From Takakia lepidozioides (taxonomy: Eukaryota > Plantae > Bryophyta), in NCBI GenBank assembly GCA_030704615.1, contig CM060731.1, forward strand, positions 4,774,001-4,838,000: a stretch of 64,000 nt of DNA. Direction: 5' to 3'. Of the stretch, positions 961 to 52,340 are shown one piece after another (position 1 is the first letter of the stretch; each line of letters starts with the position of its first letter). A model generated the notes under the pieces. That model was not told where the DNA came from. It searched no databases and worked only from the letters and a program-made list of their open reading frames with translations. A program made the position numbers and the translations under genes.

Positions 961-1712
961 ACCAAGACATGGCCAACCGGCTTCAGCAGCTAGAGCAAAG
1001 GCTCGCTGCCATGGCTACAGCTCAGGTGGTACTGGCTCCCAGGCGGGATGGTCCACCTCTTGCTCCTGAGGGAGGAGATGTGGGAGGCATGGGATTCATG
1101 TGCGGAGCAGCACTACCACTAGTGCAGGTGGAGTCTACTACAGCTGTGACTCGAGGAGCAGCACGAGTTCCTGAGCCATGAGGTGCAGAGGTGGAATTGG
1201 ATCCACAGCGTGGGGAGGCAAGCCGTCGGGCAAGGCTTCCTCAGTCATTCACATTGGCGGAGATAGTGTCGACGCCATCCATGGCACCTAGTTCTCGCCC
1301 GACTGTTACCGAGGCGGAGGTTACTATGCCATTGGGGAGAGCTACACGTGCAGCACTGACACCTGCTACCAAGGCTAGTGCAGCCGGTGTGTTATTGGGG
1401 GCAGCCACCTATGTGTGTCAAGCCCCACTGTTCTCGGCAACCATGATTGCGACGCCGGGGGTAAGACCAGCTGCAGTGTTCAAACTAGCAGCAACACTCT
1501 GCGAGAGTGGGGAGGTCACTTCATCTTCTGCGGAGTTACTGGAAGGTGTAGTGGCAGAGGGATCCTCGGATTTGAGGGTCAAGACTGCCAGGGCTGCGCC
1601 ATGGCAAGCTGCAACTGCCAGATTGACGGAGCTGCCAACTAGGCCAGCCTTTGAGCGCGCCATGGTGACACCTGGAGTTGTCTTGTGAGACAACCAGGGA
1701 GGCATTTTCACT

Positions 1713-2078
1713 TTGAGTGGACCGGCAGGCAAGAAGTACCGGCCACTGCGGGTCTTGTTGGACTCAGGAGCTCAGCCACTGATGTTGGGCAGAGCTGTTA
1801 TTGCAGATTTGGGCCTCATGGAGGCGGATATGGAGCTTTGTCCTTTCCAGATACAGACATCTCTAGGAGGATCAGAGCAGGCTCGGGGCATGACACGGCG
1901 TGAGTTGGCCATTGGACTACAACCAGATCATCCTGTAGATGGCTCAATGATGCGAGCCAAGGCCATTGTGACAGACGCGGTCTCTTACAATGTCCTTGTT
2001 GGTGGGGCAGTGTTATATCCCATGGGCTTCACCCTTGACTTTTGGGAGGAGTCAGCATCCTACAGGCCTGGATGGTAG
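1713..2078 (+). pseudogene. retropepsin-like aspartic protease domain
   Basis: RVLLDSGAQPLMLG active-site motif and C-terminal YNVLVGGAVL. Confidence 0.8.
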
Positions 2079-2459
2079 TAAGGGGTTGGTCATCGTGCAC
2101 AGCTCCCTGTGACATTCATTGGGGGTATTGCGGCTGCCCAGCGGGGCAAGATGCCAACACTAGCCGCCTTTACAGCTGCAGTTAGTTGGCCTGGAGAGTT
2201 GCTGGAAGGCAATGCCCATGCAGAGGATGTGCCACCTCCAGCAGAGCAAGATGACATGCATGGTATGGCGGAGTTGCCTGCCATGGTTGCTCACACTCCA
2301 TTATGGGGTACAAGCAAGGATTTGCAGCAGGCTGCTGATGGACGGGTACAACAAGCCTGGGTAGAGGCCTTCGTACTGTCAGGAGAAGAGGAGAATGCGG
2401 TGATTGCACCAGGACCACCTCAGTTGTCGCCATTGGACACCACACCTCTTGTGTGGCAA

Positions 2460-2981
2460 TGCCCGAATGAAGGCATATGCCTTCTGGACTTGTTTGGCGG
2501 GATCAGCAGTGGATTGGCTGCAGTAATGCAGGCAAGTGTATGAGTTTGACGTTACCTGTATGTGGAGAGGGATGAGACTGCACGATGCGTCTCACTGCGC
2601 CATGTTGCTCAGTTGGTACAGCAGTACCCTGATTTGTTGCCAGTGTCTGCAGTTCGTGGATACCAACAAACCTTGCCAGCAGACATTTCGTTGCTGGGGG
2701 CGCAGGATTTGGAGCGGGTTGGCTCCATTGATCTGGTAGTGGCAGGTTGGCATTCATCAGCCGGGCATGGCAATGGATTGCAAGACTCAAGGACGGGTCT
2801 GTTTTGGGAGATGATGCGGATTATGCGCCACTTGCAGCTTCATCAAGCTGTATCTCCAGCATACATCTTGGAGAATGTGCCACTGATGGGTGATTCTCGG
2901 GCCAGGGTGATGGCCAGTGTGCATCAAGTCCGGTCGTGGCTTGGATCAGCAGTGTTGCTGGATGCAGCTACAGCAGCATAG
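2460..2981 (+). pseudogene. C5-cytosine DNA methyltransferase domain inside the Gypsy polyprotein
   Basis: Motif I LLDLFGGI, motif II YLYVERD, motif III ADISLL, motif IV IDLVVAGW----HSSAG (catalytic PC missing), motif V DSRTGLFWE, motif VI YILENVP, then LLDAA. Two in-frame TGA stops at ~2541 and ~2547; truncated before motif VIII. Confidence 0.88.
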
Positions 2982-3034: not shown

Positions 3035-3571
3035 GCAAAGCGTGAGTTGAGCTCACGCTTCAAGGAAGCGTGAGCGGCACAAATCTGCTGGAGAAGCAGG
3101 TCCTATAGGCGAGGATTGCAAGAAGAGGGCCTATTACCGTGGACAAAACAAAGGGGGCCACCATGCACCATGTCTGCAATGCCTGCACAAAAAGAGGAAT
3201 ATGAAAATATGGCAGAATTGAGCTCAGAATGATTGACACACTTTATTTCAATTCACAAATAGACGCTTACAATGAATGACATGTGCATTTGCCCTGGTTC
3301 CGTGAACTAAATGTATGTGTTTGTCCTAAATGCAAAGTCTTCACACGGTAACCTGGAAACCAGCATGGGAAGCGGGCATGGCTCGTATGTGTTCAAGAGA
3401 ATTTTGCGGAGCCCTACGTGAGGTGTCCCGCTGCAGAAGGGTGATGACTTTCTTAGAGGACTGTCTGGGACTTAGACACTTATACGGGATCTGTAGGGTA
3501 CCCTTAATTTTTGCACAGACTGAGACCAACAGGAGCCTTAGGGGTGGCAACAGCGCACTTTAGAAGGGGAT

Positions 3572-3757
3572 TACACAGCCAGTCACAGCCAACACAGCCC
3601 GACACAGCCCATCACAGCCAATACAGCCCGTCACAGCCGACACAGACACACAGCGAGTAACAGCCCGACACAGCCAACACAGCCCGTCACAGCCGTCACA
3701 GCCACACAGCCAAACACAGTCGCACAGCCAGTCACAGCTTGACACAGCTGTCACGAC
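3572..3757 (+). repeat. degenerate CACAGCC-core tandem repeat in the family B LTR
   Basis: Repeated 9-10 bp units (acacagcc/cacagccgt). Confidence 0.9.
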
Positions 3758-4275
3758 CATAGGGAAAGGATAGCAGGACAGGGAACGACTGTGGGGAACA
3801 ACATCTGCGAAGGGAACATGTTAGTTCACGGACGACGGTTAGTGAGGGAAGCGGTTAAGAACAACGGGTAGGAAGATAAGAGGAGGAGCAGGCACTACAG
3901 GGGGGACTTCTTGGTCATGCATGAGAGGGGATCGGGCGGAGAGCAAGAACGGAAGCAAAGATGGAGAGCACGGTGAAGGAGGAGAGATGATTAGTAGATG
4001 CTTGTTATATGCAAAGCTTTAGTGATATTGTAGAGCAGATTAGAGACACAATGGCTTCGGCCTGATACCTGATAAATCATAATCTGATACTTATACGATA
4101 CAATCACACTGTGTAGAGAGATCTGAGTGAAGCTGTGGAATGAATGGATGAGTTGATGGAATCCGATAGATTGATGAAGCAAACTGATACTTAATTAACA
4201 ATGGTAAGGTAGCTAACATGAATGCGGAAAGGGAAACAAATAGGAAACACCCCCATGATACACTAGTTGTAGGTC

Positions 4276-4971
4276 ATGACTGATTGTTCTGAGCGGGCTG
4301 AGTACTTAGAGATTTCCAACTCTTCTATCTTGGAGTTTCCGCCTCGGATAGCGAAGGGATGGGTGAGTAAAAGCCGCGCGACATTTGGCGACCATACTGG
4401 GGAACTAAGTCATGAACAACCAGATGTGACAGGCATCTGGTGGGATCATGGTGGTTGGACCATTAAAGAATTTGAAGTGAATCAATTCCCTGTGGAACGA
4501 AGGAAGAAAGATTGTCCAAACAATTCTTTCAAAGGTTCTTGGAATTGCCAGACGGTTTGTAAAGAAAATATTCTTAAGCGAGTGCATGATGCTGATCCGG
4601 AATGGGGTCTGGAGAAAGGAGTGATAAAGATTTATCAGGTAGCCTGTAGAGGAAGAGCACGTTGGTTACCAACGTTGGTTTATGTGATAACATTGCTATC
4701 CATTAAGCGAGTAGAGTTTGAAGGCTGGGAAGAAAGAAAGGTGAATGTTTATACTCATATGCATGAAGAGCTTGTACTGGTAAAGAATTGGATTCCAAAG
4801 GATATTTTGTGGATCAAACTCACAACAAGAACAGCTTTTCAGACTTGTTTGCCATATGGTTATATGGTAACGGAGACTTCAAGTATAACCAAGGGTGCAT
4901 TGAAGCTTGAAAGAAACCCAGGCATATACGAGAGATATTACAGAAGAGAGTTTTGGTTATTGCCACATTAA
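4276..4971 (+). CDS. extra 231-aa ORF of unknown function upstream of gag (family B ORF0)
   Basis: Open and the same length in both family B copies; ends ~20 nt before the gag ATG. Confidence 0.6.
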   Translation: MTDCSERAEYLEISNSSILEFPPRIAKGWVSKSRATFGDHTGELSHEQPDVTGIWWDHGGWTIKEFEVNQFPVERRKKDCPNNSFKGSWNCQTVCKENILKRVHDADPEWGLEKGVIKIYQVACRGRARWLPTLVYVITLLSIKRVEFEGWEERKVNVYTHMHEELVLVKNWIPKDILWIKLTTRTAFQTCLPYGYMVTETSSITKGALKLERNPGIYERYYRREFWLLPH

Positions 4972-4992
4972 AAGAAATGAAAGACATGGGAC

Positions 4993-7900
4993 ATGAGTGA
5001 TGAAGAGAAGATAGACGCCAGAGATATTCAGTAAAAAGAGAAAGCTATCTGAAAGCTAATTATCCATATCTTTGGGAGAGAGGAATAGACATAGGGGAAT
5101 CATCTGGACCTCTCACACCATTAAGATCAAAGAGTACATCACCCATACCGGAAGAACTAGAGTTGGATACCACTCCTTCTGTTTCTTTGCAAGAAAGATT
5201 AAGGGAATTGGTACGAGAAGAAGATCAATCACGAGGTGAAAGATCTGAGGTACATCCCTGGATAAAAGATTTGACAGAAATCTTTGATAAGAGTTGGCAT
5301 GGAACACCAAAAGCAGGAACTCCAGTTTCTGAAGCGGAAGGTGAAGAAGGAGGAGAGAATGTGGTAGAGCCAACGGAGAGTTCAGACTCTCCAACATCAT
5401 TGCAGTTGAGTTACATGAGTGAAGAAGAAACCCAAGGACAGAACTTGGAGGATGAAAACAGGGAGAAGAAATTGGAAGAGTATGAAGAAGTAGACCCAAC
5501 AGCTGAGGTTGAGACTACAACCAGGACATCCCAACCCGTTGGACCTGGATCAAGTGGAGCACTTGGATCACAGGCCAACGAAGGTGTCGGCTCAGGGGGA
5601 TCAGGCGGGCTGCCTGGATCTGGCTCTGGGGGACAGGGAGTGTGGGAAGTAGTGCAACTGAAGCTGGGAATACTGTGTGAATATCGTGGGGCCAGTAGCA
5701 GGGAGTGCTCAAGGGCCACCATTTGGTGGAAGATCCACCACAAAAACAACAGGTCCAGAAGGACCAGCACCAGCAAGGGTGCCAGCACCTGTCAGTGGGC
5801 AAAAGGTAGGGCCACAGATGGCGTTACAACCAACACGGGCAAAACCACCCTTTCCAATATATTCAGGAAAAGGGGATCCCGATGTACACATTAGCCAATT
5901 TGAGCACATGTGTATAGTGAACAATGAGAATGGCGATGATGCCAAGATGAGATTGTTTCCTTGTTCACTTATAAAGAAAGCAAGTGAATGGTATGCAAGA
6001 TTCCCTGATAATCATTTCCTAACCTGGAATGGCTTGAATACAGCATTTCGAAATAGGTTCAGGACAAGTAAAACTGAGGATGAAGTGTATGGAAGTTTAC
6101 AACAGTTAAAGCAAAAGAAGCATGAAACTGTTGAGGAGTATATGGAAAAAGATGGAATTGATGATGAAAAAGCTGGCTGCAGTATCAGCACCCGGGTTAC
6201 AGAAGACTTGGTTTGTGAGTGGACTAAGACCAGAGTTGCAAAAGAAAATGGATATGTTATCCCATAATACAGTGGAGGAGGCATTTGAAACTGCAAACAG
6301 AATTGAGCAATTGGGAATGCTCAGGAGAGAGAAAAGGGATGATGAGGACTCTGAGGATGAGACAGATGAAGAAGAAGAGCAAGAACTAAAAAGGAAGAGT
6401 AAGAGAAAGGAGAAGCTGAAGAGGGATAACTATGAAAAAAGATTGGAAGAAATCTTGAAGAATTATGCCACAGAGGCTGCAACACATTGGAGGAAGGGTG
6501 TTTGGTGTGCAAAGTGCCAGAATGAAGGCCATACCACCACAGAATGCCACATGAAGGAGAAACACTGTACTATCTATAAAATGGATAACCATTCTACTGA
6601 GAATTGTTACTACAACAGAAGGACAGCTGCAAGAGAACCTAGGCAAGTAAGGGTGCATCAGGTGCAGCCCCAGCCAAGAAGAAAACAATGATCAGGACCA
6701 CTATGGTAGGTCTGGTGGTTATAACAATGGCATGGAAGGGAGAGGTAATTCAAGAGGGAATTACCAAGGAAATTCCAGAGGCAACTATCAGGGTAATCCA
6801 AGGGGGAATTACCAGCCCGGGAATCAGGATTATAGAAATAATCCAAGAACAGACCAAGGGCGAGGACCCCAATGGTGAAGAACTATGTTACTATTGTAAT
6901 CAGCCAGGACATCGCAGGGCAGCCTGTTCATTCTGGATAAGACACCAGAATGAGATGAGAGCTCCTGTGAATGAGGGCCCAGTGGTGGCAGCTCACATGG
7001 TTAGGCCATGTGTTTGTACCAGAAGTAAGTACAATGATAGTAACAAGAAGAAAAGCCAAACTAATACCTCCAGTAGTAGAGGAAAAGATGATAATGAAGG
7101 TGGCAATGATATGCCTGAAGATGAAGAGACTTGGAAAGATGAGAAGAAACTGCACAAGGAAGTGGCAGATACTATAAGGGAAATGCAAAAGAGTACTGAT
7201 ATTCCTGTGGCAGATTCCTCTGATTCTGATGGAGAAGAAGAAGGGAGTGAGGAAGAAAAGGAAGAAAGAAGATGCAGACATGCAAAAATAATGAAGAGAC
7301 TTTGGCTGGCTGAAGTAATATGCCAGACCAAAGCAGAAATTACCATTGGACAGCTATTAGCTGTGTGGCACCTTATTGTAGGCACAGGCTGTATCAAGCA
7401 ATCAATCGAATTGCCAGGAGACAGGAAACACAGACCTGAACAGCAAGGTGACCAGTTATATGTGAAGCCGGAAGGGCGAGAAACAGTCATGGACTTTGAT
7501 GATTCTATGCAAGTAATCCAATTGAGAATTGGAAACACAGAACTAACTGATGTACTGATAGATGAGGTTCTGGGTAAGTAGTAAATATCATGACAGACCA
7601 ATTAAGGAAGAAGTTGGTCTAAGTAACATGAAACCAGCCCCATTTACAGTAACAATGGCAGATCAAAGAAGTGTACAGCCATTGGGATTAATAAGAGGAG
7701 TTAAGATACAGATACAGAAGATGATCTTTATGATCACAGTAACTGTGTTGAAAATGGATGAAGTCATGGAGGCTTACTCCTTATTATTGGACGGTTGTGG
7801 CTGAAACAGGCCAGGGTATTCCATGACTGGAATTCTCAGTTACTAACCGTGCATAATGGGATACACGAGATACAAATTACCACAAAGGAAATCTAGTAGA

Positions 7901-9008
7901 TTACCTGCTACAAGAAGACCTCGAGGAGTCAGAGAGTATGACTGGAAAGGAGGACTGGATGAGGAGCAGGAAGCTACCCTATTTGCTGCACACCCAGAGT
8001 GGGAGCAGGTTGCAGAGATGCGACGGAAAGCCTAAGTTTGTTGAGAGGTATCTGCTGTGGTGTAGTGACAGCAACACCAACTGAAGAGGAAACCAGCATT
8101 TACCATCACATTTCTATGAAGAAAGAGAAGGAGAAATAGGAAATCCTAGAGAACCAGCCACTGTGAGCTTACAGGATGAAGTGGTGACTGGTTGGACAAT
8201 CACAACTGATGAGCAAGTGAGGGAAGTGAATGTGGGAACTAAAGAGGGGAACCGAGGATGGTGAATGTAGGAGCTGATTTGGAGCCAGAATTCTTGGAAG
8301 AAGCTAAGAGTTTGTTCATCAAATACAGAGATGTATTTGCTTGGAGCTATGAGGATCTAAAAGGGATACCACCTGAAATTTGTCAGCATAAGATTGAACT
8401 GGAACCAGGGTCAGTACCATCAAGCAGGCGACGGTACAGAATGAATCCCAACTACGCACAGAAGGTTGGAGAAGAGATTAAGAAGTGGCTGAGGCTAAGT
8501 TTTAATACCCATAGAGTATACAACTTGGTTGTCACCCATTGTGTATAGTTCCCAGAAGAATGGTAAACTAAGAGTATGTGTGAACTACAAGAAGCTGAAT
8601 GCTTGTACGAAGAAGAATCCTTTCCCTTTGCCATTCACAGAAGCAGTATTGGACACTGTGGCAGGCCAGAGATGTACTCATTCATGGATGGGTTCAGTGG
8701 TTATAATCAAGTGCAAGTTGCAGAAGAAGATAGGCAGAGGAAAGACAGCTTTCATCACAGACTGGGGGCTTATGCATACAAAGTCATGCCCTTTGGACTT
8801 TGTAATGCACCAGCAACCTTTCAGAGAGTAATAAGTGAATCTTTTCATGAGTATCTGGATGATTTCATGCAGGTGTTCTTGGATGATTTCAGTGTGTACA
8901 ACCTAGAATGAGCACTTGCATAAATTGGAGTTATGTCTGGCCAGATGCAGGATGAGAGGTCTGGGCTTGAATCCAGAGAAGTGTACTTTCTGTGTGAACT
9001 CAGGGGTG
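4993..9008 (+). pseudogene. gag-pol of family B copy 1, many frameshifts
   Basis: Fragments match the longer ORFs of copy 2 (YSGKGDPDVHI gag, three CCHC knuckles, VLIDxG protease, RT); many single-base indels near the contig end could be sequencing errors. Confidence 0.88.
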
Positions 9009-9508
9009 NNNNNNNNNNNNNNNNNNNNNNNNNNNNNNNNNNNNNNNNNNNNNNNNNNNNNNNNNNNNNNNNNNNNNNNNNNNNNNNNNNNNNNNNNNNN
9101 NNNNNNNNNNNNNNNNNNNNNNNNNNNNNNNNNNNNNNNNNNNNNNNNNNNNNNNNNNNNNNNNNNNNNNNNNNNNNNNNNNNNNNNNNNNNNNNNNNNN
9201 NNNNNNNNNNNNNNNNNNNNNNNNNNNNNNNNNNNNNNNNNNNNNNNNNNNNNNNNNNNNNNNNNNNNNNNNNNNNNNNNNNNNNNNNNNNNNNNNNNNN
9301 NNNNNNNNNNNNNNNNNNNNNNNNNNNNNNNNNNNNNNNNNNNNNNNNNNNNNNNNNNNNNNNNNNNNNNNNNNNNNNNNNNNNNNNNNNNNNNNNNNNN
9401 NNNNNNNNNNNNNNNNNNNNNNNNNNNNNNNNNNNNNNNNNNNNNNNNNNNNNNNNNNNNNNNNNNNNNNNNNNNNNNNNNNNNNNNNNNNNNNNNNNNN
9501 NNNNNNNN
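9009..9508. other. assembly gap (500 N)
   Basis: Run of N of round length; true size unknown. Confidence 0.99.
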
Positions 9509-10039
9509 AGCCATGGCATGAGAAGGTAAAGGTCAAGGAAAAAGGACAAGCAAGGAAACAGGTGACGGCAGTAACACCCAAAAAAGAAAGAAAACCATCG
9601 GGCATCGGAGGAGGCGCAGGAGGGGACCCAAGAGGTGACTCCGACGACGATTTGGTTCAAGGGTCCTGCGACTGTGTTGCTCCTACCCAGTCACAGGTCG
9701 TCCGGGTTCCCAAGTCAGTTCGGGAGTGGGACTGCTCTGCCAAGAAGTTGGCATTGAGGGCGAGCCTACACGGCGGTATTCGGCGGTAGGGGACGTTACG
9801 CACAGGCCAAAGCTAGAACCCCAACCATCATCCCATGCGTCAATGAGAGCTTCCTTGACGCTCGCTGCCAGGGCGAAGAAGGTGGCACCAAACAAGTCTC
9901 TGGCGGAGCAGAAGGGAAAAGCAAGAAGAGGGTGCCGGTACAGAGCCTAAAGAACCCCTGGTTTTGAAGCCATGATGGAATTATTCACGGCTGTGTGAGC
10001 ACGATTTGCAAGAGCACTCGGGGTGGGGGGTTGAGGGAG

Positions 10040-10900
10040 AGAGCTTGCGACATGATCTCCTAGACATTTCCAGATGGGGAGACTGCTGGAGGGCCTGGCT
10101 GAGGGTGCACCCACCGGAACAGGTTACTAGGACTCCTGGAAAAGCCGGGTTTGGGCTGGCGGGGATGACTTCTGGATGCGGTGGATGGATGTGTGGTTTC
10201 TTGCCACGAGAGGGAAGACCACAGCGAATGCGTGGCAAGGTGGACCCGAAGTGTCACCCCGGTACTGCTCAGAAAATGGTTCTGCATCAGTACGACAGGG
10301 TGCGAACAGAGGGCCAAAGTGTAGTATCAATCTATTGCATTCACTTCATATTGTGGTGTATGTTAAGTAGACCCTGGATTGATCCCTTTTTGTGGATGTG
10401 CAGACATTGGTGTTTGAGGCATATTGCTTTGTGAAGAGAGGGTCTACGTTCAAATTCCGCAAGGACGGTGGTCTCTTGTTGATGCCGCTGTGACCCTGTA
10501 ACCTACGATGTCCTCTACAACTATGTGCCCCACTCTAGTATGCCGAAGGACACAAAAAGACAGGCAAACCGTGGCGGTACAGCCGGACCCGGAAGCCCGC
10601 TTTCATCCAAACCCTCATGGAGACGTGCTCGATGTCAGGGGCGGGATTCTGGACCTCACATGCGGCACGGGTAAGCCTTCACGTGCTCAGTTGTCCCCTG
10701 TGGCCCCATTGCAATTGAATGCCGCAAGCTATTAACCGCCCGCTTTGTTCCTCAGGTGCTTCAATGTGGGCAAGGGACGTTGTCCGACAGGCATGTGTTC
10801 GCCTTCGAGCCAGATACTGCCCTCCACAACTCGGAACTTGCAGCGGCTGAACGTCTGCCGAAAGAGGAAGAGGCATCCTCGGAGGATGAGGAAAATCCGA
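10040..10900 (+). pseudogene. spliced beta-class N4-cytosine/N6-adenine methyltransferase-like gene fragment
   Basis: Joining frames gives GKPWRYSRTRKPAFIQTLMETCSMSGxGILDLTCGT[GT-AG intron 10671-10755]GASMWAxTLSDRHVFAFEPD, resembling motifs X-I-II (KP...L.....GD.VLD...G.G......GR.....E.D). A weak motif-IV-like CDMIxLDI lies upstream at ~10055. Confidence 0.6.
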
Positions 10901-11759
10901 GAAGGAGCAGGGGGAGAAGTTGGGATCGAGGCGAGAGCCCCCGGTTTACGAGTGAGTGGTGGCATTGATAAGTTGCCTCCAGATTTGTGAGGCACCTCCC
11001 TCCGCTCTCTTATTTCATTGAAAACCCTTTTGGTTGTGCTGGTATTGACATTCTTCAAGTTGGATTTGTTCTTACTGTAGGATGCCAGAGTACTTGCCGG
11101 AGGGACGTCTAAACCGGGAGTTCATGGGCAGGAGGAACGTTGCCTTTTTTTGCCAGGGGAGATTTCATGCCTAGTCAGAAAGGGAGTACATCCTGCCTAC
11201 TTATGCTGCCCGGCTTGCTTCGGTGTCCATTAGGAGGTGTTCCGAACGTAGTCGTGTACAGCAGATTTTGACGAGGCAAGCCTCAAGAAATGGAAGATGA
11301 GGGAGGAGCGGCCAGCAGCTAGATATTAGAGCCCGTCGGGCCTCGTAGATTTGTGTGGATTCTGCTGAGGAAAGTGGGGGAGAAGACGCCAGAAGATTCC
11401 CAGGAGGTGAGGTGGACAGTCCCCAAGGAGAGGACGGGATTTTTGAGAGGCATAGTGGAACTGATGCATCACAGAGCTCGGAGGATGAGGGGGGATGAGG
11501 GGGATGAGGAAGAAGGTGGGGCAAGTTCCTCGGAGGGTGTAGGAGAGTAGTGCCCATTCCGGCTATGACAGTAGAACACACTTGTAGAGACGTGGCTTGC
11601 CACAAAATTTGCAATAAAATGTTGCATTTTAAGTCCACTGGTGCCACAATTCCAACTTCACATGACCCTATTTCCGTGCCTCCTAACCCTATTTCCGTGG
11701 ACTCACAATGGTCTGCCTAATTGTTTTTTTTCCGCTCATGCTATGCCGCTCATGTATCA

Positions 11760-14700
11760 TGCGCTCATTGAAAAGCAGCCCCCCATCTTTTGTATGACAT
11801 AGGTCCTTTCCACGAGTGATTTAAGCTTAGAAGCTTGAATCTCCTTCTCTGCAACCATATACAAATCCCCCGTCTTAAAAGTCGTAACTGCCTTCATCAA
11901 ACTGATCCTTTGCTTTCATCTGAATCTGGTCATAGATATCAGGCTGCATCATCACACTTCTGACAATACTCGTGTACATCTTTGTAAGTAGGCCAACCAG
12001 TATCCGCGAGTAGAGTAGGATCTTTCTCTGGTAGTCTCTTCTCAAAAATGACCTCCAGACCACTCCCGTATGAACTTCCGCCAAAAACTTTATTTCTTCA
12101 TGGTGGTACAAGCATCGTTTTAGGCTCCATCAGCTTCCTAACGATACATTCTGCTTCCTACCATAGTATAAGGTAAAGCTTTGATAGCGATTCTCTTCCT
12201 CTGCTCCTTACCATAACTAGGTGGGCATTGACCATGAGCAAGGTAGTATCTGATTGGCCACTACCAATCTAACCATTCATCTGCACTTCCTTGCACCTCC
12301 ATTACAAATAAACTCGCATCAGGTAACTGATCGTCCACTCCTGTGGCGGCCTCTCCTGTTGTTAGTCGTGACAAATGATCTGCCACAAGATGCAAACGGC
12401 CAGGCTTGTAAATAACCTCGAACTCAAACTCATTGCAAGATTATTAACCATCTTGCTATTCTTCCGCTTATCAGAGGTTTGTTCACCAGATATATCAGAG
12501 CCTGGTGATCCACATAAAAACATAAACTTCTTCCCAATAGGTAATGCCTGAATTTCTTGACTGCATAAATCATTGCCAATGCTTCTCTTCAGTTGTGCTA
12601 TAGTTCCTCTCAGCACTGTTCATCAACCGGCTAGCATAGTACACAGGTGAATCTATATTCCCTGGTAACATTCTGGGCTAACACCGCTCCCAACGCTTCT
12701 CCTGATGCATCGCAATGAACATGGAATACTACATGCCAGTGAGGGTTAATCAGTACAGGTGTAGTTGTTACTGACAGTGTAAGTTCCTCAAATGCCTGTG
12801 ACATTCCGCTGTCCAGGTAAATACTGCATCTTTCTTCAGTAGTTTGCTCAATGGTGCTGCTATTTGTGCATACCTTTTGACAAATCTCCTGTAATAACTG
12901 GTTTGCCCAAGGAATCTCCGTAGACTTTAACATTCACTGGTGGTGGAGATGCTTTAATGGACTCTGTCTTTCTGGGATCCACAAGGAGTCCCTTCTTACA
13001 CACAATGTGTCCCAGAAGCACCCCTGAGTTCACACAGAAAGTACACTTCTCTGGATTCAGGCCCAGACCTCTCATCCTGCATCTGGCCAAACATAACTCC
13101 AATTTATGCAAGTGCTCACTCTTAGAGCTGTACACTGAAATCATCCAAGAATACCTGCATGAAATCATCCAGATACTCATGAAAAGATTCACTTATCACT
13201 CTCTGAAAGGTCGCTGGTGCATTACAAAGTCCAAAGGACATGACTTTGTATGCATAAGCCCCCAGTCTGTGATGAAAGCTGTTTTCCCTTGGTCTTCTTC
13301 TGCCACTTGCACTTGATTATAACCACTGAAGCCATCCATGAATGAGTACATCTCATGGCCTGCCACAGTGTCTAATACTGCTTCTGTGAATGGCAAAGGG
13401 AAAGGATCTTTCTTCGTACAAGCATTCAGCTTCTTATAGTTCACACATACTCTTAGTTTGCCATTCTTCTTGGGAACTATAACAATGGGTGACAACCAAG
13501 TTGTATACTCTATTGGGTAAATAAACTTAGCCTCAGCCAACTTCTTTATCTCTTCTCCAACCTTCTGTGCGTAGTTGGGATTCATTCTATACCTCGCCTG
13601 CTTGATTGGTACTGACCCTGGTTCCAGTTCAATCTTATGCTGACAGACTTCAGGTGGTATCCCTTTTAGATCCTCATAGCTCCAAGCAAATACATCTCTG
13701 TATTTGATGAACAAGCTTTTAGCTTCTTCGAAGAATTCCGGTTCCAAATCAGCTCCTACTTTCACCATCCTCGGTTCCTCTTGAGTTCCCACATTTACTT
13801 CTCTCACCTGCTCATCAGCTGTGATTGTCCAACCAGTCACCACTTCATCCTGTAAGCTCACAGTGGCTGGTTCTTCTAGGATTTCTATTTCTCCTTCTCT
13901 CTCTTCATAGAAATGTGATGGGTAAATGCTAGTTTCCTCTTCAGTTGGTGTTGCTGTCACTACACCACAGCAGATACCTCTCAAACAACTTAGGCTTTCC
14001 AGCCGCATCTCTGCAACCTGCTCCCACTCTGGGTGTGCAGCAAATAGGGTAGCTTCCTGCTCCTCATCCAGTCCTCCTCTCCAGTCATACTCTCTAACTC
14101 CTCGAGGTCTTCTTGTAGCAGGTAATCTACTAGATTTCTTTGTGGTAATTTGTATCTCGTGTATCCCATTATGCACGGTTAGTAACTGAGAATTCCAGTC
14201 ATGGAATACCCTGGCCTGTTTCAGCCACGGACGTCCCAATAATAAGGAGTAAGCCTCCATGACTTCATCCATTTTTAATACAGTTACTGTGATCATAAAG
14301 ATCATTTTCTGTATCTGTATCTTAACTCCTCTTATTAATCCCAATGGCTGCACACTTCTTTGATCTGCCATTGTTACTGTAAATGGGGCTGGTTTCATGT
14401 TACTTAGACCAAGCTTCTTCCTTAATTGGTCTGTCATGATATTTACTCCAGAACCACCATCTATCAGTACATCAGTTAGTTCTGTGCTTCCAATTCTCAA
14501 TTGGATTACTGGCATAGAATCATCAAAGTCCATGACTGGTTCTCGCCCTTCCGGCTTCACATTATAACTGGTCACCTTGCTGTTCAGGTCTGTGTTTCCT
14601 GTCTCTTGGGCAATTCGATTGATTGCTTGATACAGCCTGTGCCTACAATAAGGTGCCACAGCTAATAGCTGTCCAATGGTAATTTCTGCTTTGGTCTGAC

Positions 14701-17036
14701 ATATTACTTCAGCCAAAGTCTCTTCATTACTTTGCATGTCTGCATCTTTTTTTTTCCTTTCTTCCTCACTCCCTTCTTTTTCTCCATCCGAATCAGAGGA
14801 ATCTGCCACAGGAATATCAGTACTCTTTTGCATTTCCCTTATAGTATCTGCCACTTCCTTGTGCAGTTCCTTCTCATCTTTCCAAGTCTCTTCATCTTCA
14901 GGCATATCATTGCCACTTCCAGTCTCATCTTCTTCCTCTTCTACTGGAGGTATTAGTTTGGCTTTACTTCTTGTTACTATCATTGTACTTACTTCTGGTA
15001 CAACACATGGCCTAACCATGTGAGCTGCCACCACTGGGCCCTCATTCACAGGAGCTCTCATCTCATTCTGGTGTCTTATCCAGAATGAACAGGCTGCCTT
15101 GCGATGTCCTGGCTGATTACAATAGTAACATAGCTCTTCACCATTGGGTCCTCGCCCTTGGTCTGTTCTTGGATTATTTCTATAATCCTGATTCCCGGGC
15201 TGGTAATTCCCCCTTGGATTACCCTGATAGTTGCCTCTGGAATTTCCTTGGTAATTCCCTCTTGAATTACCTCTCCCTTCCATGCCATTGTTATAACCAC
15301 CAGACCTACCATAGTGGTCCTGATCATTGTTTCTTCTTGGCTGGGGCTGCACCTGATGCACCCTTACTTGCCTAGGTTCTCTTGCAGCTGTCCTTCTGTT
15401 GTAGTAACAATTCTCAGTAGAATGGTTATCCATTTTACAGATAGTACAGTGTTTCTCCTTCAGGTGGCATTCTGTGGTGGTATGGCCTTCATTCTGGCAC
15501 TTTGCACACCATACACCCTTTCTCCAATGTGTTGCAGTGTGTTGCAGCCTCTGTGGCATACTTCTTCAAGATTTCTTCCAATCTTTTTTCATAGTTATCC
15601 CTCTTCAACTTCTCCTTTCTCTTACTCTTTCTTTTTAGTTCTTGCTCTTCTTCTTCATCTGACTCATCCTCAGAGTCCTCATCATCCTTTTTCTCTCTCC
15701 TGAGCATTCCCAATTGCTCAATTCTGTTAGCAGTTTCAAATGCCTCCTCCACTGTATTATGGGGTAACATATCCACTTTCTTTTGCAACTCTGGTCTTAG
15801 TCCACTCATAAACCAAGTCTTCTATAAACCGGGTGCTGGTACTGCAGCCAGTTTTTTCATCATCAATTCCATCTTCTCCATATACTCTTCAACAGTTTCA
15901 TGCTTCTTCTGCTTCAGCTGTTGTAAACTCCCATACACTTCATCCTCAGTTTTACTTGTCCTGAACCTATTTCGAAATGCTGTATTCAAGCCATTCCAGG
16001 TTAGGAAATGATTATCAGGGAATCTTGCATACCATTCACTTGCTTTCTTGATAAGTGAACAAGGAAACAATCTCATCTTGGCATCATCGCCATTCTCATT
16101 GTTCACTATACACATGTGCTCAAATTGGCTAATGTGTACATCGGGATCCCCTTTTCCTGAATATATTGGAAAGGGTGGTTTTGCCCGTGTTGGTTGTAAC
16201 GCCATCTGTGGCCCTACCTTCTGCCCACTGACAGGTGCTGGCACCCTTGCTGGTGCTGGTCCTTCTGGACCTATTGTTTTTGTGGTGGATCTTCCACCAA
16301 GTGGTGGCCCTTGAGCACTCCTTGCTTCTGGCCCCACGATATTCACAGTATTCCCAGCTTCAGTTGCACTACTTCCCACACTCCCTGTCCCCCCAGAGCC
16401 AGATCCAGGCAGCCCGCCTGATCCCCCTGAGCCGACACCTTCGTTGGCCTGTGATCCAAGTGCTCCACTTGATCCAGGTCCAACGGGTTGGGATGTCCTG
16501 GTTGTAGTCTCAACCTCAGCTGTTGGGTCTACTTCTTCATATTCTTCCTCTTCTAATTTTTTCTCTCTGTTTTCATCCTCCAAGTTCTGCCCTTGGGTTT
16601 CTTCTTCACTCATGTAACTCAACTGTAATGGTGTTGGAGAGTCTGAACTCTCCGTTGGCTCTGCCACATCCTCTTCTCCTTCTTCATCTTCTGCTTCAGA
16701 AACTGGAGTTCCTGCTTTTGGTGTTCCATGCCAACTCTTATCAAAGATTTCTGTCAAGTCTTTTATCCAAGGATGTACCTCAGATCTTTCACCTCGTGAT
16801 TGATCTTCTTCCTGTACCAATTCCCTTAATCTTTCTTGCAAAGAAACAGAAGGAGTGGCATCCAACTCTAGTTCTTCCGGTATAGGTGATGCACTCTTTG
16901 ATCTTGATGGTGTGAGAGGTCCAGATGATTCCCCTATGTCTATTCCTCTCTCCCAAAGATATGGATAATTAGCTTTCAGATAGCTTTCTCTTTTTGCTGA
17001 ATATCTCTGTCGTCTAGCTTCTCTTTCATCACTCAT
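11760..17036 (-). pseudogene. gag-pol of family B copy 2
   Basis: 404-aa and 787-aa ORFs with VLIDGGSG, LLLGRPWL, YRMNP, KDPFPLPF and YSFMDGFSGYNQV; frameshifts further downstream. Confidence 0.9.
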
Positions 17037-17057
17037 GTCCCATGTCTTTCATTTCTT

Positions 17058-17753
17058 TTAATGTGGCAATAACCAAAACTCTCTTCTGTAATATCTCTCG
17101 TATATGCCTGGGTTTCTTTCAAGCTTCAATGCACCCTTGGCTATACTTGAAGTCTCCGTTACCATATAACCATATGGCAAACAAGTCTGAAAAGCTGTTC
17201 TTGGTGTGAGTTTGATCCACAAAATATCCTTTGGAATCCAATTCTTTACCAGTACAAGCTCTTCATGCATATGAGTATAAACATTCACCTTTATTTCTTC
17301 CCAGCCTTCAAACTCTACTCGTTTAATGGATAGCAATGCTATCACATAAACCAATGTTGGTAACCAACGTGCTCTTCCTCTACAGGCTACCTGATAAATC
17401 TTTATCACTCCTTTCTCCAGACCCCATTCTGGATCAGCATCATGCACTCGTTTAAGAATATTTTCTTTACAACCGTCTGGCAATTCCAAGAACCTTTGAA
17501 AGAATTGTTTGGACAATCTTTCTTCCTTCGTTCCACAGGGAATTTGATTCACTTCAAATTCTTTAATGGTCCAACCACCATGATCCCACCAGATGCCTGT
17601 CACATCTGGTTGTTCATGTCCCAGCTCCCCAGTATGGTCGCCAAATGTCGCGCGGCTTTTACTCACCCATCCCTTCGCTATTCGAGGCGGAAACTCCAAG
17701 ATTGAAGAGTTGGAAATCTCTAAGTACTCAGCCCGCGCAGAACAATCAGTCAT
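17058..17753 (-). CDS. extra 231-aa ORF0 upstream of gag, copy 2
   Basis: Homolog of 4276-4971. Confidence 0.6.
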   Translation of the reverse strand: MTDCSARAEYLEISNSSILEFPPRIAKGWVSKSRATFGDHTGELGHEQPDVTGIWWDHGGWTIKEFEVNQIPCGTKEERLSKQFFQRFLELPDGCKENILKRVHDADPEWGLEKGVIKIYQVACRGRARWLPTLVYVIALLSIKRVEFEGWEEIKVNVYTHMHEELVLVKNWIPKDILWIKLTPRTAFQTCLPYGYMVTETSSIAKGALKLERNPGIYERYYRREFWLLPH

Positions 17754-18295
17754 GACCTACAGCTAGTGTATCATGGGGGTGTTTCCTATTTGTTTCCCTT
17801 TTGGTATTCATGTTAACTATCTTACCATTGATAATTAAATATCAGTTTGCTTTATTAATCTATTGGATTCCATCAACTCATCCATTCATTCCACAGCTTC
17901 ACTCAGATCTCTCTACACAGTGTGTTGGTATCGTAAAAGTATCCGATTATGATTTATCAGGTATCAGGCCGAAGCCAATGTGTCTCTAATCTCCTCTACA
18001 ATATCATTACAATCTTGCATATATCAAGCATCTACTCATCATCTCTCTATCTTCACTTCCGTTCTTCATCTCTGCCCGATCCCCTCTCCTCTATCACCAA
18101 GAAGTCCTCCTCCGAATGCTGTGAAAATCATCCTCCTTCATTCCCCGTTTTCTCTTTTATCTTCCTATCCGCGGTTCTAACCGTTTCCCTCACTAACCGT
18201 CGTCTGTGAACTAACATGTTCCCTTCGTAGGTGTTGTTCCCCACAATCGTTCCCTGTCATACTCTTCGTTCCCTATGATCGTGACAGCTATGTCA

Positions 18296-18525
18296 AGCTG
18301 TGACTGGCTGTGTGAAACTGTGACGGGCTGTGACTGGCTGTGCGACTGTGTTTGGCTGTGTCGGCTGTGACGGGCTGTGTTGGCTGTGACGACTGTGACG
18401 GCTGTGTTGGCTGTGTTGGCTGTGACGACTGTGACGGGCTGTGTTGGCTGTGTGGGCTGTGGCGGTTGTGTGGGCTGTGATGGCTGTGTGGGCTGTGACG
18501 GCTGTGTGGGCTGTGACGACTGTGT
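18296..18525 (-). repeat. GGCTGTG tandem repeat in the family B copy 2 LTR
   Basis: Same unit as 3572-3757 with a different copy number. Confidence 0.9.
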
Positions 18526-18647
18526 AACCCCCCTCTACAGTGCGCTGCTGTCACCCCTAAGGCTCCTGTTGGTCTCAGTCTGTGCAAAAATTAAGGGTAC
18601 CCTACAGATCCCGTATAAGTGTCTAAGTCCCCGACAGTCCTCTAACA

Positions 18648-20446
18648 GTTACTCATAAAATAAAGGCCACCATCCAACACCCACCTATCCCCCACTGTAC
18701 AAATATACCTACCCCCTCCCCCAAATTAAAACAAATAAAGCCTGGATTGAGTCACTGCAACGCCCCCACAAGCCACACCAACAAAAGCCCCCCCCCCCAA
18801 TTCCTTCATTCTATCATCAATCCTACCCCCTCAAATACCCCCCTGCGAACTCTCATTACACCGATGGATCCCTTACCCAAACTAATGCAGGCTACGGTAT
18901 CTATCATGCAGGTACAGGGAGAGGGGTGGCCCTCGGACTCCCTGGTCTTGCCACTATTCCCAGGACCGAGCTTATGGCCATATACAACGCTCTCCTCCTA
19001 CTCGATACCTTTAGCCCCCCATACTTCATCTTCACTGACAGCCTTACCTCCTTATTCCTCATCCGCAACCATATTTCCCGACCCCTCCTCCCACCACCAT
19101 CATCCTGACCGCAACCTCATCTCAGCCATTATCGACGCCGCCGTCTCTATAAAGCACCCAGTACACCTACTCAAAGTACGCTCGCACACTGGCATTCAAG
19201 GGAATGAGGAGGCCGATCTCCTCGCTCAGCTTGGTGCCACCAAACTCAAAAGTCAAACCCACGAACGATCCTATCCATATCGCCCACTCCTACCCCTTTT
19301 GGTTTATACACCCAATTCCGAACCCTACTGCACCACGACCCATACGCAATCTCTTGGCTACCCTCACCCATGAAGCAAACAAACAGGTCGCAGCCTCTAT
19401 CAGTCATACCAAAGTACATATTAAAAAATGGACCCAATCCGAGGTATTACACCACAAACTCTCGAACCATTTCTGGCACACCAAAGCTACCACTGATGCA
19501 CAAATCCGCCAGACACTTAAATTCAGATACGCCCAATACATGGGTCACCAACGCAAACACATTTTCTGGCCACATCTCTTCCCATCACCTTACTGTCCGC
19601 TGTGCTCCACAACTCATAATGCACGTGATACCTGGCCACACCTCCTGAGCCAATGCACGCATCCGGTCATCCATGGTCTTCATATCACCAGACACAACCA
19701 AGCAGTCTGGCATCTCCACAAACTATTCAAAAAACGTGCCAAAACCAGATGGTTCACCCTCATTAATGCCGGTACCTTCCAAGGGAAACCACCAGACCAT
19801 ACTGTGCCGCCATGGCTTCTACCATGCACGTGTACCCGAGTACCCTGCTCATGCCCCGCCCGGCTCTGCCGGGACATACTCATTGTCCAAGGACTACCCG
19901 TTCAAGCCTCGCCACCTACTTCACCATCCCCGCAGCTCACCATCCATTTTATCGAGTTTACATTCTGCCATGATCGATACCCTCACTATTCAATCTTGGA
20001 AAAATGGCAAAAATACGCCCCACTCATTCTTGCAATTCGGCGGCAGGGTTGGAAGACTGGCCCGCTCACAGTTATCACTGCCGGAACTTGAGGCGACATA
20101 CACAATGCCAGTATTAATGATTTGCATGATAACTTCAAGATACCCATTCTTTCAATCCACCAATGTTTCAAAACAATCCATCTTACAACACTCCGCTCCC
20201 TTACAACCATCATCACCAACAAACGCCAGCTCGAAGCTAGCCTCTCTAGCGCACCCTAGCCCCCCCCATGGTCTCCCTAGATACCCAGGGGGTTCATAGC
20301 AGCCCTCCCCTCTATCTCTCCTTGGTTACTTGGTGTCCCACAGGATACCCTTACTATTATAGGGGGCAGTAGCCGGAAGGTGAAGTGACTCTTAGTTACG
20401 CCGGCTACGGCCGGAGTCTTCTCTCTCTCTCTCTCTCTCTCTCTCT
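18648..20446 (+). mobile_element. 3' part of a Dualen/RandI-like non-LTR retrotransposon (RNase H - CCHC - RLE) with (TC)n end
   Basis: HYTDGS, ELMAIY, IFTDSLTS, KVRSHTGIQGNEEAD (RNase H); CPLC...H....C; RLCRDILI...FIEFTFC...KWQKY (RLE). Homologous to 36866-38710 and cut at the family B LTR. Confidence 0.85.
20365..20418 (+). promoter_or_regulatory. structured 3' terminal RNA element of the LINE
   Basis: AGUA-gcc-GGAA-ggu-GAA hairpin, ccggc-UACG-gccgg hairpin and gacuc/gaguc closing stem; conserved in copy 2. Confidence 0.7.
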
Positions 20447-34339: not shown

Positions 34340-36887
34340 TGCACATTCAGCATCCAGCAGATGACCCAGTCATCAGGAGCAATGCATCTTGAGTGTCACT
34401 ATTATTATTGCCTACCAGCAATGAAAGGGCTGGCAAAGCAATCATCATCTGTTGTTGTCAAGACACCACTTTGTCCCACTTGAGTGATTGGAATTGCCGT
34501 CTCCCAAATGGGAGGTGATCGTCATCCTGGGTGAAGAGACACCATAATTCAAGTTTCTTATGGCACTTATCTTACCTTTCTTTTCTGATTGGTCAATGTG
34601 CATCAACCCTTGGCTGCCCATGAGTCAGGTCATGTGGATTCCGTCCAGTGCCAAAACTTGCAGCTAGGCTGCTTGATAAAAGTTGTAGAGGATAAAAATT
34701 GTCTTTTCATGGTACCTACCACATCCAGGGGATTAAAGGTCAGTGAGATACGGCCACTTGAATGCCACTTACACTCTTCCTTTTTTGGGAGCCCACCCTT
34801 AGTACTTGTGCAGTCCCGTACGCAGAATTGAATGGCACATCAGTTTACCAATTGTACATAGTCCGAAGATTTTGGCAATTCGAATGAGCTTAAAGGTTTA
34901 TACTACAACAAGTCCTTAGAGGGCCATGGCAAGCTAGAGGAAAAAACACTGTGATCTTCAAATCTGGAAGCATATGTGTATATGTATACATATATGATGC
35001 CATGCCAACCAAAGTCACTGTAAGTAGGAGCTTGAATGCATAACAAGGACCAAGGAATTGTAAGTCTACATATGGGTCTTTATGTTTAGATAGCGAGGGC
35101 TTTCCAACGGTACCAAGCACTTAGGGTGGGCCCCGCAGTTTGGGACATCTCAAATCTACAAAACAAAACAAACAAAACAAAACAAAACAAACATCTCACT
35201 TCATGTATTGATGTATATAGTGAAGCAGATGGTACACCCAAAACTTTTTTTTACAAGACACCGCCAAAGGAAGACTGATTAATTTAAGGACCTAACATAG
35301 AAAAAACCAGGGAAGCAAGGATAAGACTGTGTTGCAAAAGGTAAAATTTTAGTGCTTGCTCCTAAGCCCTAAGCGCGGCCCGAAAGGGGCCTCCAGCCAA
35401 CGTCCGCCAGGTGTAACTTGGTGAGATCTTGTTCAAAGGAGAGAAGGTAGAAATCGAGATGAGGCTTGCAGAATCCTGAAGGAAGTTGGAGGCAGTAATG
35501 GATCGAACAAAGTGGTGGGGAGGAGAGACTTGGCCAGAGTGATGAGAGGGTAGGGCTATGTCCACAGGAAGAGAGATACATGGCAGTACATTGGGTCTCG
35601 AGAATCTCTTGTTTCGTTTCGTGGTTTGGATACAAAGCAGCCAACATCTTTTCCGATCCTTGTGTCTTTATGTAGGATGTAGGATTGCATTCACTAGGGG
35701 GTGGAGAGACTCTCCTAGAATGTCAGTAGGACCTTGGGTTGCAAATGCCGGTGCGAAGAGGATGTTGAGATCGTAGAGAGGACACCATTTATATGGTCCC
35801 TAGTTTGTTGGAGGTCATCCCTGTGGTTTTCCTCTTCGATTTCAAGTATAGCTAGATGTCAAGAGGGCTGGTCTATTGATCTAATTTTCCCCAAGAAGGC
35901 TAAAGGCCTTTGGGGAGTATGTGTTGGTTTTTCCTGTCCTTTCCAGGGGCTGCCCAACAGCCATAGCCAAGGGAAAAGGGATCCCGTAGGACCAACTTCC
36001 ATGTCCCGGCCGTTGGAAAATGTTGACTAGATAATAAAAAAATGACACCGCGCTTCCATGTATTAATTAATAATTTTCGCCGGCGCCCAGATATCGGTGA
36101 GCGCAATACCTGGGAATTTGGCGCCAGAGTTCAATGGCGGATAATCGGTAATCACTTTTGACCTGTTGTACTGGGTTACCATGTCTCTTCTACCTGCTGT
36201 AAAGGTCACCTTTGTGCACATTGCTTGTCGGGACCCGCCACACCCTTTCCTTGTGCGAGGCTCATCACACTCACAAGCTCTTCATACTCATCGGACCTGC
36301 TAGAGGGTGTTCATGCCAGGCTCTCATGTTCATGCAGAACTACTCGCTCTTCACACTTGCCGGGACCCACCAAATCTAGTAGTTTGGCAACTATAGTGCG
36401 CTTGGCGTACACTCTTGCCAAGCTATGGGCTCTACATCATCAAGTCTTCACAAGAGTCGGAACCCACCAACTTTTGTCATTTGGCTACTACAAGTAAGTA
36501 CACTCTGACCCCACTTAGTATGACTCTTTTAGTAATGTGTTACATGATATAATGATGAGGAATGTTTGAGGCAGATTAAGGTGTCATTACTATCAATAGT
36601 AGAGGTATAGATAAAGATACACACATATTACTTCTATTATGGTTTAGACACAGATTAGGGGATGAATTTGAAAACATTTAAGAGAAGAGAGAATTATGCA
36701 GGGTGCCTGTTGATTGTCGGCAATTGATATTAGGTTTTATTTTTCCGGTCATGGCGTATACGAGTTCTAGTTTGTCAGGGTGGTTTCTCCAGAAGATACT
36801 CCTCTTCAAGATGGAATTCCTAACCAAGATGAAGATGAGGTTGTTTATTGGAAACCACAAGGATTAGAGAGAGAGAGAGAGAGAGAA

Positions 36888-52324: not shown

Positions 52325-52340
52325 TGGTGGAGATGCGGGG
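52325..52340 (+). promoter_or_regulatory. primer-binding site, probably tRNA-Ala
   Basis: tggtggagatgcgggg directly after the LTR, complementary to ...CCCCGCAUCUCCACCA. Confidence 0.8.

What the first reader, a model, noticed from the sequence alone, without database searches (positions are those of the whole stretch)
9509..11550. Intron-containing beta-class N4/N6-methyltransferase-like gene, antisense and 3' of a Gypsy integrase
Seen: motif X-I-II-like peptide (RKPAFIQTLMETCS..G.ILDLTCGT^GAS.....DRHVFAFEPD) split by a GT-AG intron at 10671-10755, with a weak motif-IV-like segment upstream, i.e. the permuted beta order. It lies just past the integrase tail of family B copy 2 with no intervening LTR. 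Inference: it is cargo in the element's 3' region, and antisense orientation would let introns survive retrotransposition. Eukaryotic beta-class MTases are rare (N4mC enzymes of bdelloid rotifers and Marchantia).
Basis: partly seen in the sequence, partly recalled or inferred. Interest (0 to 1): 0.8.

Follow-up and report, generated by a model that had tools for sequence, protein, structure and literature searches.

The report
Transposon methylase-like gene inside Gypsy integrase
A multi-copy plant gene that is spliced and polyadenylated, and whose end resembles the cofactor-binding half of bacterial DNA methylases, cuts into a retrotransposon's integrase here, so it likely belongs to a separate nested DNA transposon rather than being retrotransposon cargo, and it would likely bind its own element's DNA rather than methylate it.

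Summary
The gene is real, but the cargo reading is probably wrong. The gene is multi-copy and cut at its 5' end by the N gap. An automated frameshift-tolerant beta-methylase profile matches motifs X-I-II across the splice (31.4 bits; 0 of 150 shuffles and 0 of 56 other stretches reach it). The catalytic half does not match, and no sound DPPY/SPPY motif was found. Pfam gave no hit. The gene does not lie past the integrase: the integrase frame stops inside its GPY module at 11784, where other copies in two runs continue in frame. What follows has short repeats and a G-run, like a DNA transposon end. Best reading: a nested DNA transposon's methylase-like accessory gene, a kind published for algae (Ectocarpus Sola1-1, Bostrychia PAG2) and noted by this scan in other plant genomes. 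The transposase and second end were not seen.

The parts
9509..11629 (+). Methylase-like gene, 5' part lost in the N gap; transcript ends in poly(A) at 11629
   Evidence: X9 contigs 19-22; contig 19 (1179 nt) covers 9551-9982 and has about 740 more letters on the 5' side; poly(A) loose end at 11629
10043..10079 (+). Best candidate for the motif IV position; reads D-I-X-P-D-G across a frame break, with no aromatic residue (inferred, weak)
   Evidence: second-best gapless placement, 0.8 bits, not significant; translations
10254..10265 (+). S-P-R-Y, the only word within one error of a canonical motif IV; not shared by other copies
   Evidence: table 3, place 10264 differs in X5, X7 and X9
10321..10403 (+).
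   Evidence: table 5, X9 contig 20
10404..10670 (+). Exon with a motif-VIII-like strand (TLVFEAYCFVK, by eye only), then motif X and the first half of motif I
10671..10755 (+).
10756..10966 (+). Exon with the rest of motif I, motif II (RHVFAFEPD), a motif-III-like helix and an acidic linker
10967..11080 (+). Intron 3, boundaries approximate; the window's donor is irregular
   Evidence: table 5: joint 10969 to 11095 in one X9 contig, shorter side 23 letters
11081..11629 (+). Last exon: unassigned C-terminal region, acidic tail, predicted stop TAG 11548-11550, AATAAA at 11613
   Evidence: no Pfam or PHROGs hit
11665..11783 (.). Likely transposon end: two exact 14-nt repeats (11665, 11686), three CGCTCAT units (11733, 11747, 11762), and a five-G run on the minus strand ending at the junction
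   Evidence: role inferred
11784..11925 (-). Integrase C-terminal piece of Gypsy copy 2, ending inside the GPY module (WKGP..YVIQKM) at 11784
   Evidence: loose ends at 11784 in X5 and X8
11925..11949 (-). Joint where this copy lacks the integrase core; other copies run on at both sides
   Evidence: loose ends at 11925 or 11949 in X3, X6 and X8
11784..18647 (-). Gypsy copy 2 (gag, protease, RT, RNase H, broken integrase), the target of the insertion
9009..9508 (.). 500-N assembly gap that hides the gene's 5' part and the rest of its element

Best explanation
A spliced, polyadenylated, multi-copy gene with the SAM-binding end of a beta-class DNA amino-methyltransferase abuts a Gypsy integrase that is cut inside its GPY module, and it is likely the accessory gene of a separate DNA transposon that jumped into this copy, with a protein that would likely bind the element's own DNA rather than methylate it. 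Shown: splicing, poly(A), many copies, the motif X-I-II match, and the cut in the integrase that other copies do not share. Inferred: 11783 is the transposon's end; the gene points outward towards that end, with the transposase and the gene's 5' domain in or beyond the gap; the introns need no antisense trick because a DNA transposon has no RNA step. Inferred and weakest: the enzyme has lost its catalytic aromatic residue and acts as a SAM- and DNA-binding helper that keeps its element active. I put working 4mC/6mA catalysis at about 30%. The frame breaks in the window are probably in large part assembly error, so this copy cannot be called dead.
For: Integrase frame ends mid-module at 11784, while the third Gypsy in the window runs on for more than 30 residues after its own GPY. 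Loose ends at 11784 in X5 and X8 continue in frame, and the X8 contig carries 479 letters beyond that point that lie on nothing in 9509-12450. Depth arithmetic puts the X5 contig at 52-62, against 52.5 and 51.3 for neighbouring integrase contigs. Short direct repeats and a G-run at the junction. Gene GC 0.52-0.57 and CpG o/e 0.54-0.81, against 0.43-0.44 and 0.19-0.44 in the Gypsy coding DNA. Own poly(A) site 154 nt inside the junction. Published PF01555-type accessory genes sit on DNA transposons, opposite the transposase in Sola1-1_Ec32. No canonical motif IV. The window differs from the longest X5 contig by 63 gap letters and 30 substitutions, falling to 1 and 1 in 204 nt at 12246-12450, which looks like read error near a contig end.
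Against: No transposase, second end or target-site duplication is visible, and no genome is held. Copy 2 has another private deletion 140-170 nt away, so the 11784 junction could also be a deletion. Gene and integrase contigs have similar depth in X5 and X6, which fits linkage as well. 11743-11783 is covered at about 275 in X6 but not in X5 or X7. The 5' terminal region of the Gypsy itself has CpG o/e 0.62, so composition is weak evidence. At the window's error rate a 12-nt motif survives untouched only 41% of the time, and with at most one error 79%, so absence of motif IV is not proven. No homolog was found to confirm the family.
Confidence: 0.55

Rival explanations
1. One reading: the gene is antisense cargo between integrase and 3' LTR in this Gypsy family or a subfamily, and the window's copy has lost the end of the integrase and the spacer by a deletion. 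Antisense orientation keeps the introns through reverse transcription.
For: Similar contig depth of gene and integrase in X5 (81-115 against about 52) and X6. Copy 2 has a second private deletion nearby. Reverse-oriented 3' extra ORFs are a recognised class in plant Ty3/gypsy elements (PMC6317226 passages).
Against: Other copies continue the integrase at 11784, and 479 further letters in X8 match nothing in the gene or its repeats. No listed contig bridges the junction. The moss-specific Phygy clade is described as short, with coding sequence filling nearly the whole interior (I did not place this family in a clade). Published LTR-borne adenine methylases are Dam-type and reported absent from Streptophyta.
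Confidence: 0.17
2. Same nested DNA transposon, but the protein is an active N4-cytosine or N6-adenine methylase whose catalytic motif is divergent or hidden by sequence errors; it would mark its own element.
For: Motifs X, I and II keep their spacing. The family is transcribed and spliced. The error rate leaves about a 21% chance of two or more errors in the motif.
Against: The N-terminal profile scores at background. All 30 substitutions of the 1311-nt X5 contig appear to be listed and none falls in the candidate motif at 10064-10079 (its 63 gap letters are not listed). Earlier scan notes report similar plant genes without the motif (unchecked).
Confidence: 0.15
3. The junction is an assembly mis-join in noisy sequence near a contig end, and the gene's true neighbour is unknown.
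For: Indel-rich sequence near the gap and two discontinuities within 170 nt.
Against: Sequence on both sides of the junction matches other copies well at 11409-11713 (3 substitutions, 4 gap letters) and 12246-12450 (1 and 1). The junction falls exactly at a terminus-like G-run.
Confidence: 0.07
4. The domain is an ordinary class I SAM-binding fold, or a host multi-gene family, and not a beta-class DNA methylase relative.
For: A profile of the protein methylase PrmA also hits motif I (23.7 bits, 0 of 60 shuffles), and a YhdJ-only profile does not hit (14.7 bits, 52 of 60 shuffles as high). No library hit. The 43-sequence profile did not single out the locus in a whole-window scan.
Against: The deeper beta profile scores higher (31.4-35.1 bits) and spans motifs X to III. 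After motif II the sequence turns into an acidic linker rather than the remaining strands of an unpermuted fold.
Confidence: 0.06

Closest known systems
Accessory gene of Ectocarpus Sola1-1_Ec32 (PMC12477816; passages seen)
   Same: N4C/N6A methyltransferase-type domain in a transposon gene separate from the transposase; proposed there to bind and modify its own element.
   Different: Here the host is a land plant (likely a moss, inferred); the ParB-like domain and transposase cannot be seen because of the gap; no catalytic motif found; no sequence comparison was possible.
PAG2 of red algal Plavaka/EnSpm, Mutator and Zisupton elements (bioRxiv 10.1101/2025.02.11.637652; passages seen)
   Same: PF01555 methylase domain as a mobile accessory gene of DNA transposons.
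   Different: PAG2 carries a SET domain; none was detected here. This gene does not reach a PF01555 hit in the window's broken form.
Bdelloid N4CMT (PMC8885841; passages) and Marchantia MpDN4MT1a/b (bioRxiv 10.1101/2021.02.12.428880; passages)
   Same: Eukaryotic genes of bacterial amino-methylase type; N4CMT is permuted beta class and has introns.
   Different: They are low-copy host genes with SPPY/TSPPY and demonstrated 4mC activity. This one is a high-copy repeat gene with no such motif found.
DAM-LTR and EpiLTR retrotransposons (bioRxiv 10.64898/2026.05.21.726589; parts 1-3 of 5 read)
   Same: Prokaryote-like amino-methylase next to LTR retrotransposon genes.
   Different: Those are Dam-type with an Asn-Pro-Pro pocket and are reported absent from Streptophyta. 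This gene is beta-like, spliced, antisense, and interrupts the integrase.
KnitGypsy-Dnmt3 (PMC5890265; passages)
   Same: A methylase linked to a Gypsy element in the green lineage.
   Different: That is an intronless C5 methylase inside the polyprotein ORF. A fragment of that kind lies at 2460-2978 of this window, in another element.

Membership tests
Beta-class DNA amino-methyltransferase (PF01555) | Motifs X-I-II-III at the C-terminal end of the domain | tested here: met
   31.4 bits, 0 of 150 shuffles, 0 of 56 other stretches; acidic linker follows
Beta-class DNA amino-methyltransferase (PF01555) | Catalytic motif IV, (D/N/S)PP(Y/F/W), upstream | tested here: inconclusive
   None in three frames; one word within one error, not shared by other copies; about 21% chance that errors hide it
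Beta-class DNA amino-methyltransferase (PF01555) | Motifs V-VIII match the family profile | tested here: not met
   15.1 bits, 18 of 60 shuffles as high; sequence is noisy
Beta-class DNA amino-methyltransferase (PF01555) | Pfam hit | tested here: not met
   on single-frame pieces only; the joined protein was not scanned against Pfam
Beta-class DNA amino-methyltransferase (PF01555) | Methyl transfer to C-N4 or A-N6 | not testable with these tools
   needs assay or modification calls
Gypsy 3' reverse extra ORF (eORF-3'R cargo) | Lies downstream of a complete integrase ORF | tested here: not met
   integrase ends inside GPY at 11784; other copies continue
Gypsy 3' reverse extra ORF (eORF-3'R cargo) | Same junction in other family copies | tested here: inconclusive
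   no bridging contig listed, two runs show another continuation; tables are cut
Gypsy 3' reverse extra ORF (eORF-3'R cargo) | 3' LTR beyond the gene | not testable with these tools
   N gap at 9009-9508; no genome held
DNA transposon methylase accessory gene (Sola1-1_Ec32 / PAG2 kind) | Multi-copy, spliced gene with an N4/N6 methylase-type domain | tested here: met
DNA transposon methylase accessory gene (Sola1-1_Ec32 / PAG2 kind) | Terminal inverted repeats and target-site duplication | tested here: inconclusive
   one terminus-like end with short repeats; no second copy in the window
DNA transposon methylase accessory gene (Sola1-1_Ec32 / PAG2 kind) | Transposase gene in the same element; ParB-like or SET partner domain | not testable with these tools
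   5' part lies in or beyond the gap; the X9 contig's extra 740 letters are not printed

The most novel reading that the evidence does not exclude
A land-plant Gypsy subfamily carries a spliced, antisense, transcribed beta-class amino-methylase between integrase and 3' LTR and uses it to put 4mC or 6mA on its own copies. That would be the first LTR-borne enzyme of this class and the first such element in streptophytes in the literature I could search.
Probability: 0.1. Interest if true: 0.8.

Novelty: new member of a known kind. Interest (0 to 1): 0.42.

Why it matters
It extends transposon-borne amino-methylase-like accessory genes, published for brown and red algae, to a land plant where the family is abundant and makes spliced, polyadenylated RNA. 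That gives a testable system for an open question: whether such proteins write 4mC/6mA on their own elements or only bind them. It also bears on the origin of plant 4mC enzymes such as MpDN4MT1. As Gypsy cargo it would matter more, but the evidence points away from that.

Tried and rejected
Library scans with no methylase hit: Pfam on 61 stop-free frames and 5 X-at-stop readings; PHROGs on 7 pieces; PDB sequences; phage records (7 chance-level hits); hhalign against alignment A1 (probability 0.1). Homolog searches, all blank: 44-aa piece; 292-aa X-at-stop reading against 1.84 billion representatives, 0 hits at E 0.001; I set the wrong frame, so it tested little. These are weak negatives because the queries mix frames and introns. 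Metagenome patterns: 0 matches and 2 matches with no similarity to the gene. A whole-window frameshift-aware scan with the 43-sequence profile did not list the locus among the 12 best plus-strand peaks. A hand-joined core scored 9.4 bits against at most 6.4 in 5000 shuffles on the C-terminal profile, and 5.8 bits with 1 of 5000 shuffles higher on the full profile; the join was chosen by eye, so I rely. One search used a wrong frame for one piece and is void. Run X8 (organism B) shows no cover of the gene; absence of cover is not used as evidence. No run on record as RNA was listed; X9 is a guess by the tool. Summed depths in X1, X3, X4 and X7 were not used to rank parts. The ESM Atlas was not searched, so feature-based look-alikes remain open. 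Papers PMC12973397 and bioRxiv 10.1101/2022.06.16.496473 (passages) held nothing on this gene type. S-P-R-Y at 10254 was rejected as motif IV.

Full report
Setting. The window is repeat-rich plant DNA with a 500-N gap at 9009-9508. No whole genome is held. Pfam finds PPR, plant transposon and Gypsy domains, and one holder run is labelled 'plant metagenome'. Earlier scan notes call the host a likely moss; I did not test that. Gypsy copy 1 (3453-9008, +) and copy 2 (13019-18645, -) are 93% identical. The finding lies on the + strand between the gap and the integrase end of copy 2.

The peptide and the intron. The intron runs from GT at 10671 to AG at 10755 and splits the Gly of C-G-T-G. Laying four further runs on 9509-12450 gave direct support. 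Contig 20 of run X9 (770 nt, kind guessed as RNA) covers 10036-10320, 10404-10672 and 10773-10958. Another X9 contig joins 10969 to 11095, and one ends in poly(A) at 11629, just after AATAAA at 11613. The X5 contig of 1311 nt covers 9568-10872 unspliced. This is one run of one study, and the transcript comes from some copy of the family: contig 20 differs from the window by 23 substitutions and 35 gap letters in 740 nt. X9 contig 19 runs about 740 letters further 5', so the gene's start is lost in the gap.

Copy number and noise. In one search, 21744, 13593, 4474 and 247 contigs of four DNA runs (at most two samples) were laid, and all 30 bins had cover in all four. The tables hold 172 substitution rows and 176 indel rows. 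At 10554 and 10772, where the window's frame breaks, other copies differ in length in all four runs. Against X5 contigs the window has 4.8 gap letters per 100 near the gap and 0.5 at 12246-12450. Copy 1 against copy 2 gives 65 indel events to 201 substitutions. I infer that many breaks are read error, so this copy cannot be judged dead or alive.

Is it a methylase? No library scan hit the single-frame pieces, and three homolog searches were blank (the last was mis-framed). I built profiles from fetched beta-class methylases: 43 sequences (37 of the 75 loci, after dropping one with stops, plus 6 of the 120 proteins), then 132 after adding domains from the 80 loci. The small profile did not single out the locus in a whole-window scan. 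With the larger one, an automated frameshift-tolerant alignment of the spliced sequence scored 31.4 bits, against a mean of 16.2 and a maximum of 25.3 in 150 codon shuffles and a maximum of 22.5 in 56 other window stretches; unspliced it scored 28.0. With a stiffer frameshift penalty it scored 26.1, again 0 of 150 and 0 of 56. The match covers motifs X, I, II and a motif-III-like helix. A PrmA profile also hits motif I (23.7 bits, 0 of 60 shuffles), while a YhdJ-only profile does not (14.7 bits, 52 of 60). So a SAM-binding motif is well supported. The beta order rests on the motif X match and on the acidic linker that follows motif II-III.

The catalytic half is not supported. The profile of motifs IV-VIII scores at background. 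No (D/N/S)PP(Y/F/W) occurs in any frame. Allowing one error gives one word, S-P-R-Y at 10254, against 0-4 in 12 shuffles; its Tyr codon differs in X5, X7 and X9. The position where motif IV should fall by spacing, near 10043-10079, reads D-I-X-P-D-G in the window's letters, which is only suggestive. Errors could hide a motif with about 21% probability.

Is it Gypsy cargo? On the minus strand the integrase reads WKGP..YVIQKM up to 11784, then a few unrelated residues and a stop. WxnGPyxV is the published GPY/F consensus (PMC1224870 passages), and the third Gypsy in the window continues for more than 30 residues after its GPY. In one search both X5 (organism A) and X8 (organism B) have a loose end at exactly 11784, 101 and 479 letters long, and the 30 letters shown continue the integrase frame without a stop. 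Arithmetic on the depth bins puts the X5 contig at 52-62, the same as the family's neighbouring integrase contigs. So the gene-bearing DNA does not follow a finished integrase; it replaces its end. On the gene's side of the junction are two exact 14-nt repeats, three CGCTCAT units and a five-G run, with no second copy in the window. No listed contig bridges 11714-11784, but the tables are cut. Against my reading: copy 2 also lacks its integrase core at 11925-11949 while other copies have it, so this copy is prone to deletion; gene and integrase depths are similar; and 11743-11783 has cover in X6 but not in X5 or X7.

How it most likely works. Shown: a spliced, polyadenylated, multi-copy gene with a C-terminal SAM-binding motif set, beside a cut integrase. 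Inferred: a DNA transposon inserted into copy 2 with this gene pointing outward to its end. Introns persist because there is no RNA intermediate. The protein likely binds SAM and the element's DNA and helps keep the element active; catalysis is doubtful (about 30%). The binding role is borrowed from the proposal for Sola1-1_Ec32, from the VANDAL example as described in the Bostrychia preprint, and from unchecked scan notes on plant Mutator and Sola elements with ParB-methylase genes, some lacking the motif and one ParB-like repeat gene in this genome. None of these was compared by sequence.

Comparison with print. Sola1-1_Ec32 has a ParB plus N4/N6 methylase gene opposite the transposase (PMC12477816, passages). 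PAG2 has PF01555 plus SET (bioRxiv 10.1101/2025.02.11.637652, passages). N4CMT and MpDN4MT1 are host genes with SPPY (PMC8885841 and bioRxiv 10.1101/2021.02.12.428880, passages). DAM-LTRs are Dam-type and reported absent from Streptophyta (bioRxiv 10.64898/2026.05.21.726589, parts 1-3 of 5). Iyer et al. review eukaryotic adenine methylases, including ParB fusions (PMC4738411, passages). Eight searches showed no paper on a beta-class methylase-like gene in a land-plant transposon or in any LTR element. I read no supplements, and they may list such genes.

Verdict. Observation partly confirmed, with two more introns and transcript evidence added. Interpretation partly supported: methylase-like yes, Gypsy cargo probably not. 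New member of a known kind; interest 0.42.

Noticed in passing
window 1689-2978 (+): Aspartyl-protease-like piece followed by a C5 cytosine methylase fragment (PF00145, E 3e-5, above cut-off), cut off near 2978; the layout of Gypsy-DNMT3 elements, noted many times by the scan in this genome.
   Followed up: partly
window 3453-9008 (+) and 13019-18645 (-): Two inverted copies of one Gypsy family, 93% identical, 201 substitutions (133 transitions) and 65 indel events, on either side of the N gap.
   Followed up: partly
window 4273-4968 (+) and 17061-17756 (-): A 232-codon stop-free frame ahead of gag, kept in both Gypsy copies, with no Pfam hit: a 5' extra ORF.
   Followed up: partly
window 3570-3750 and 18280-18525: Short degenerate CACAGCC-type tandem array near the 5' end of both Gypsy copies.
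   Followed up: no
window 51782-60702: A third Gypsy with 92% identical flanking repeats (51782-52324, 60188-60702) and a dUTPase between protease and RT.
   Followed up: no
window 46261-49380 (-): PPR repeats and a glycosyl hydrolase family 10 fragment in long frames, between a LINE-like element and a Harbinger-type transposase at 50015-50830.
   Followed up: no
window 18763-20440 and 36866-38580: Two inverted, 70% identical copies of an RNase H-bearing element ending in a (CT)n tract; the second has RT at 40826-41568.
   Followed up: no
window 11625-11710: A 14-nt inverted repeat (86%) whose left arm covers the poly(A) site at 11629.
   Followed up: no
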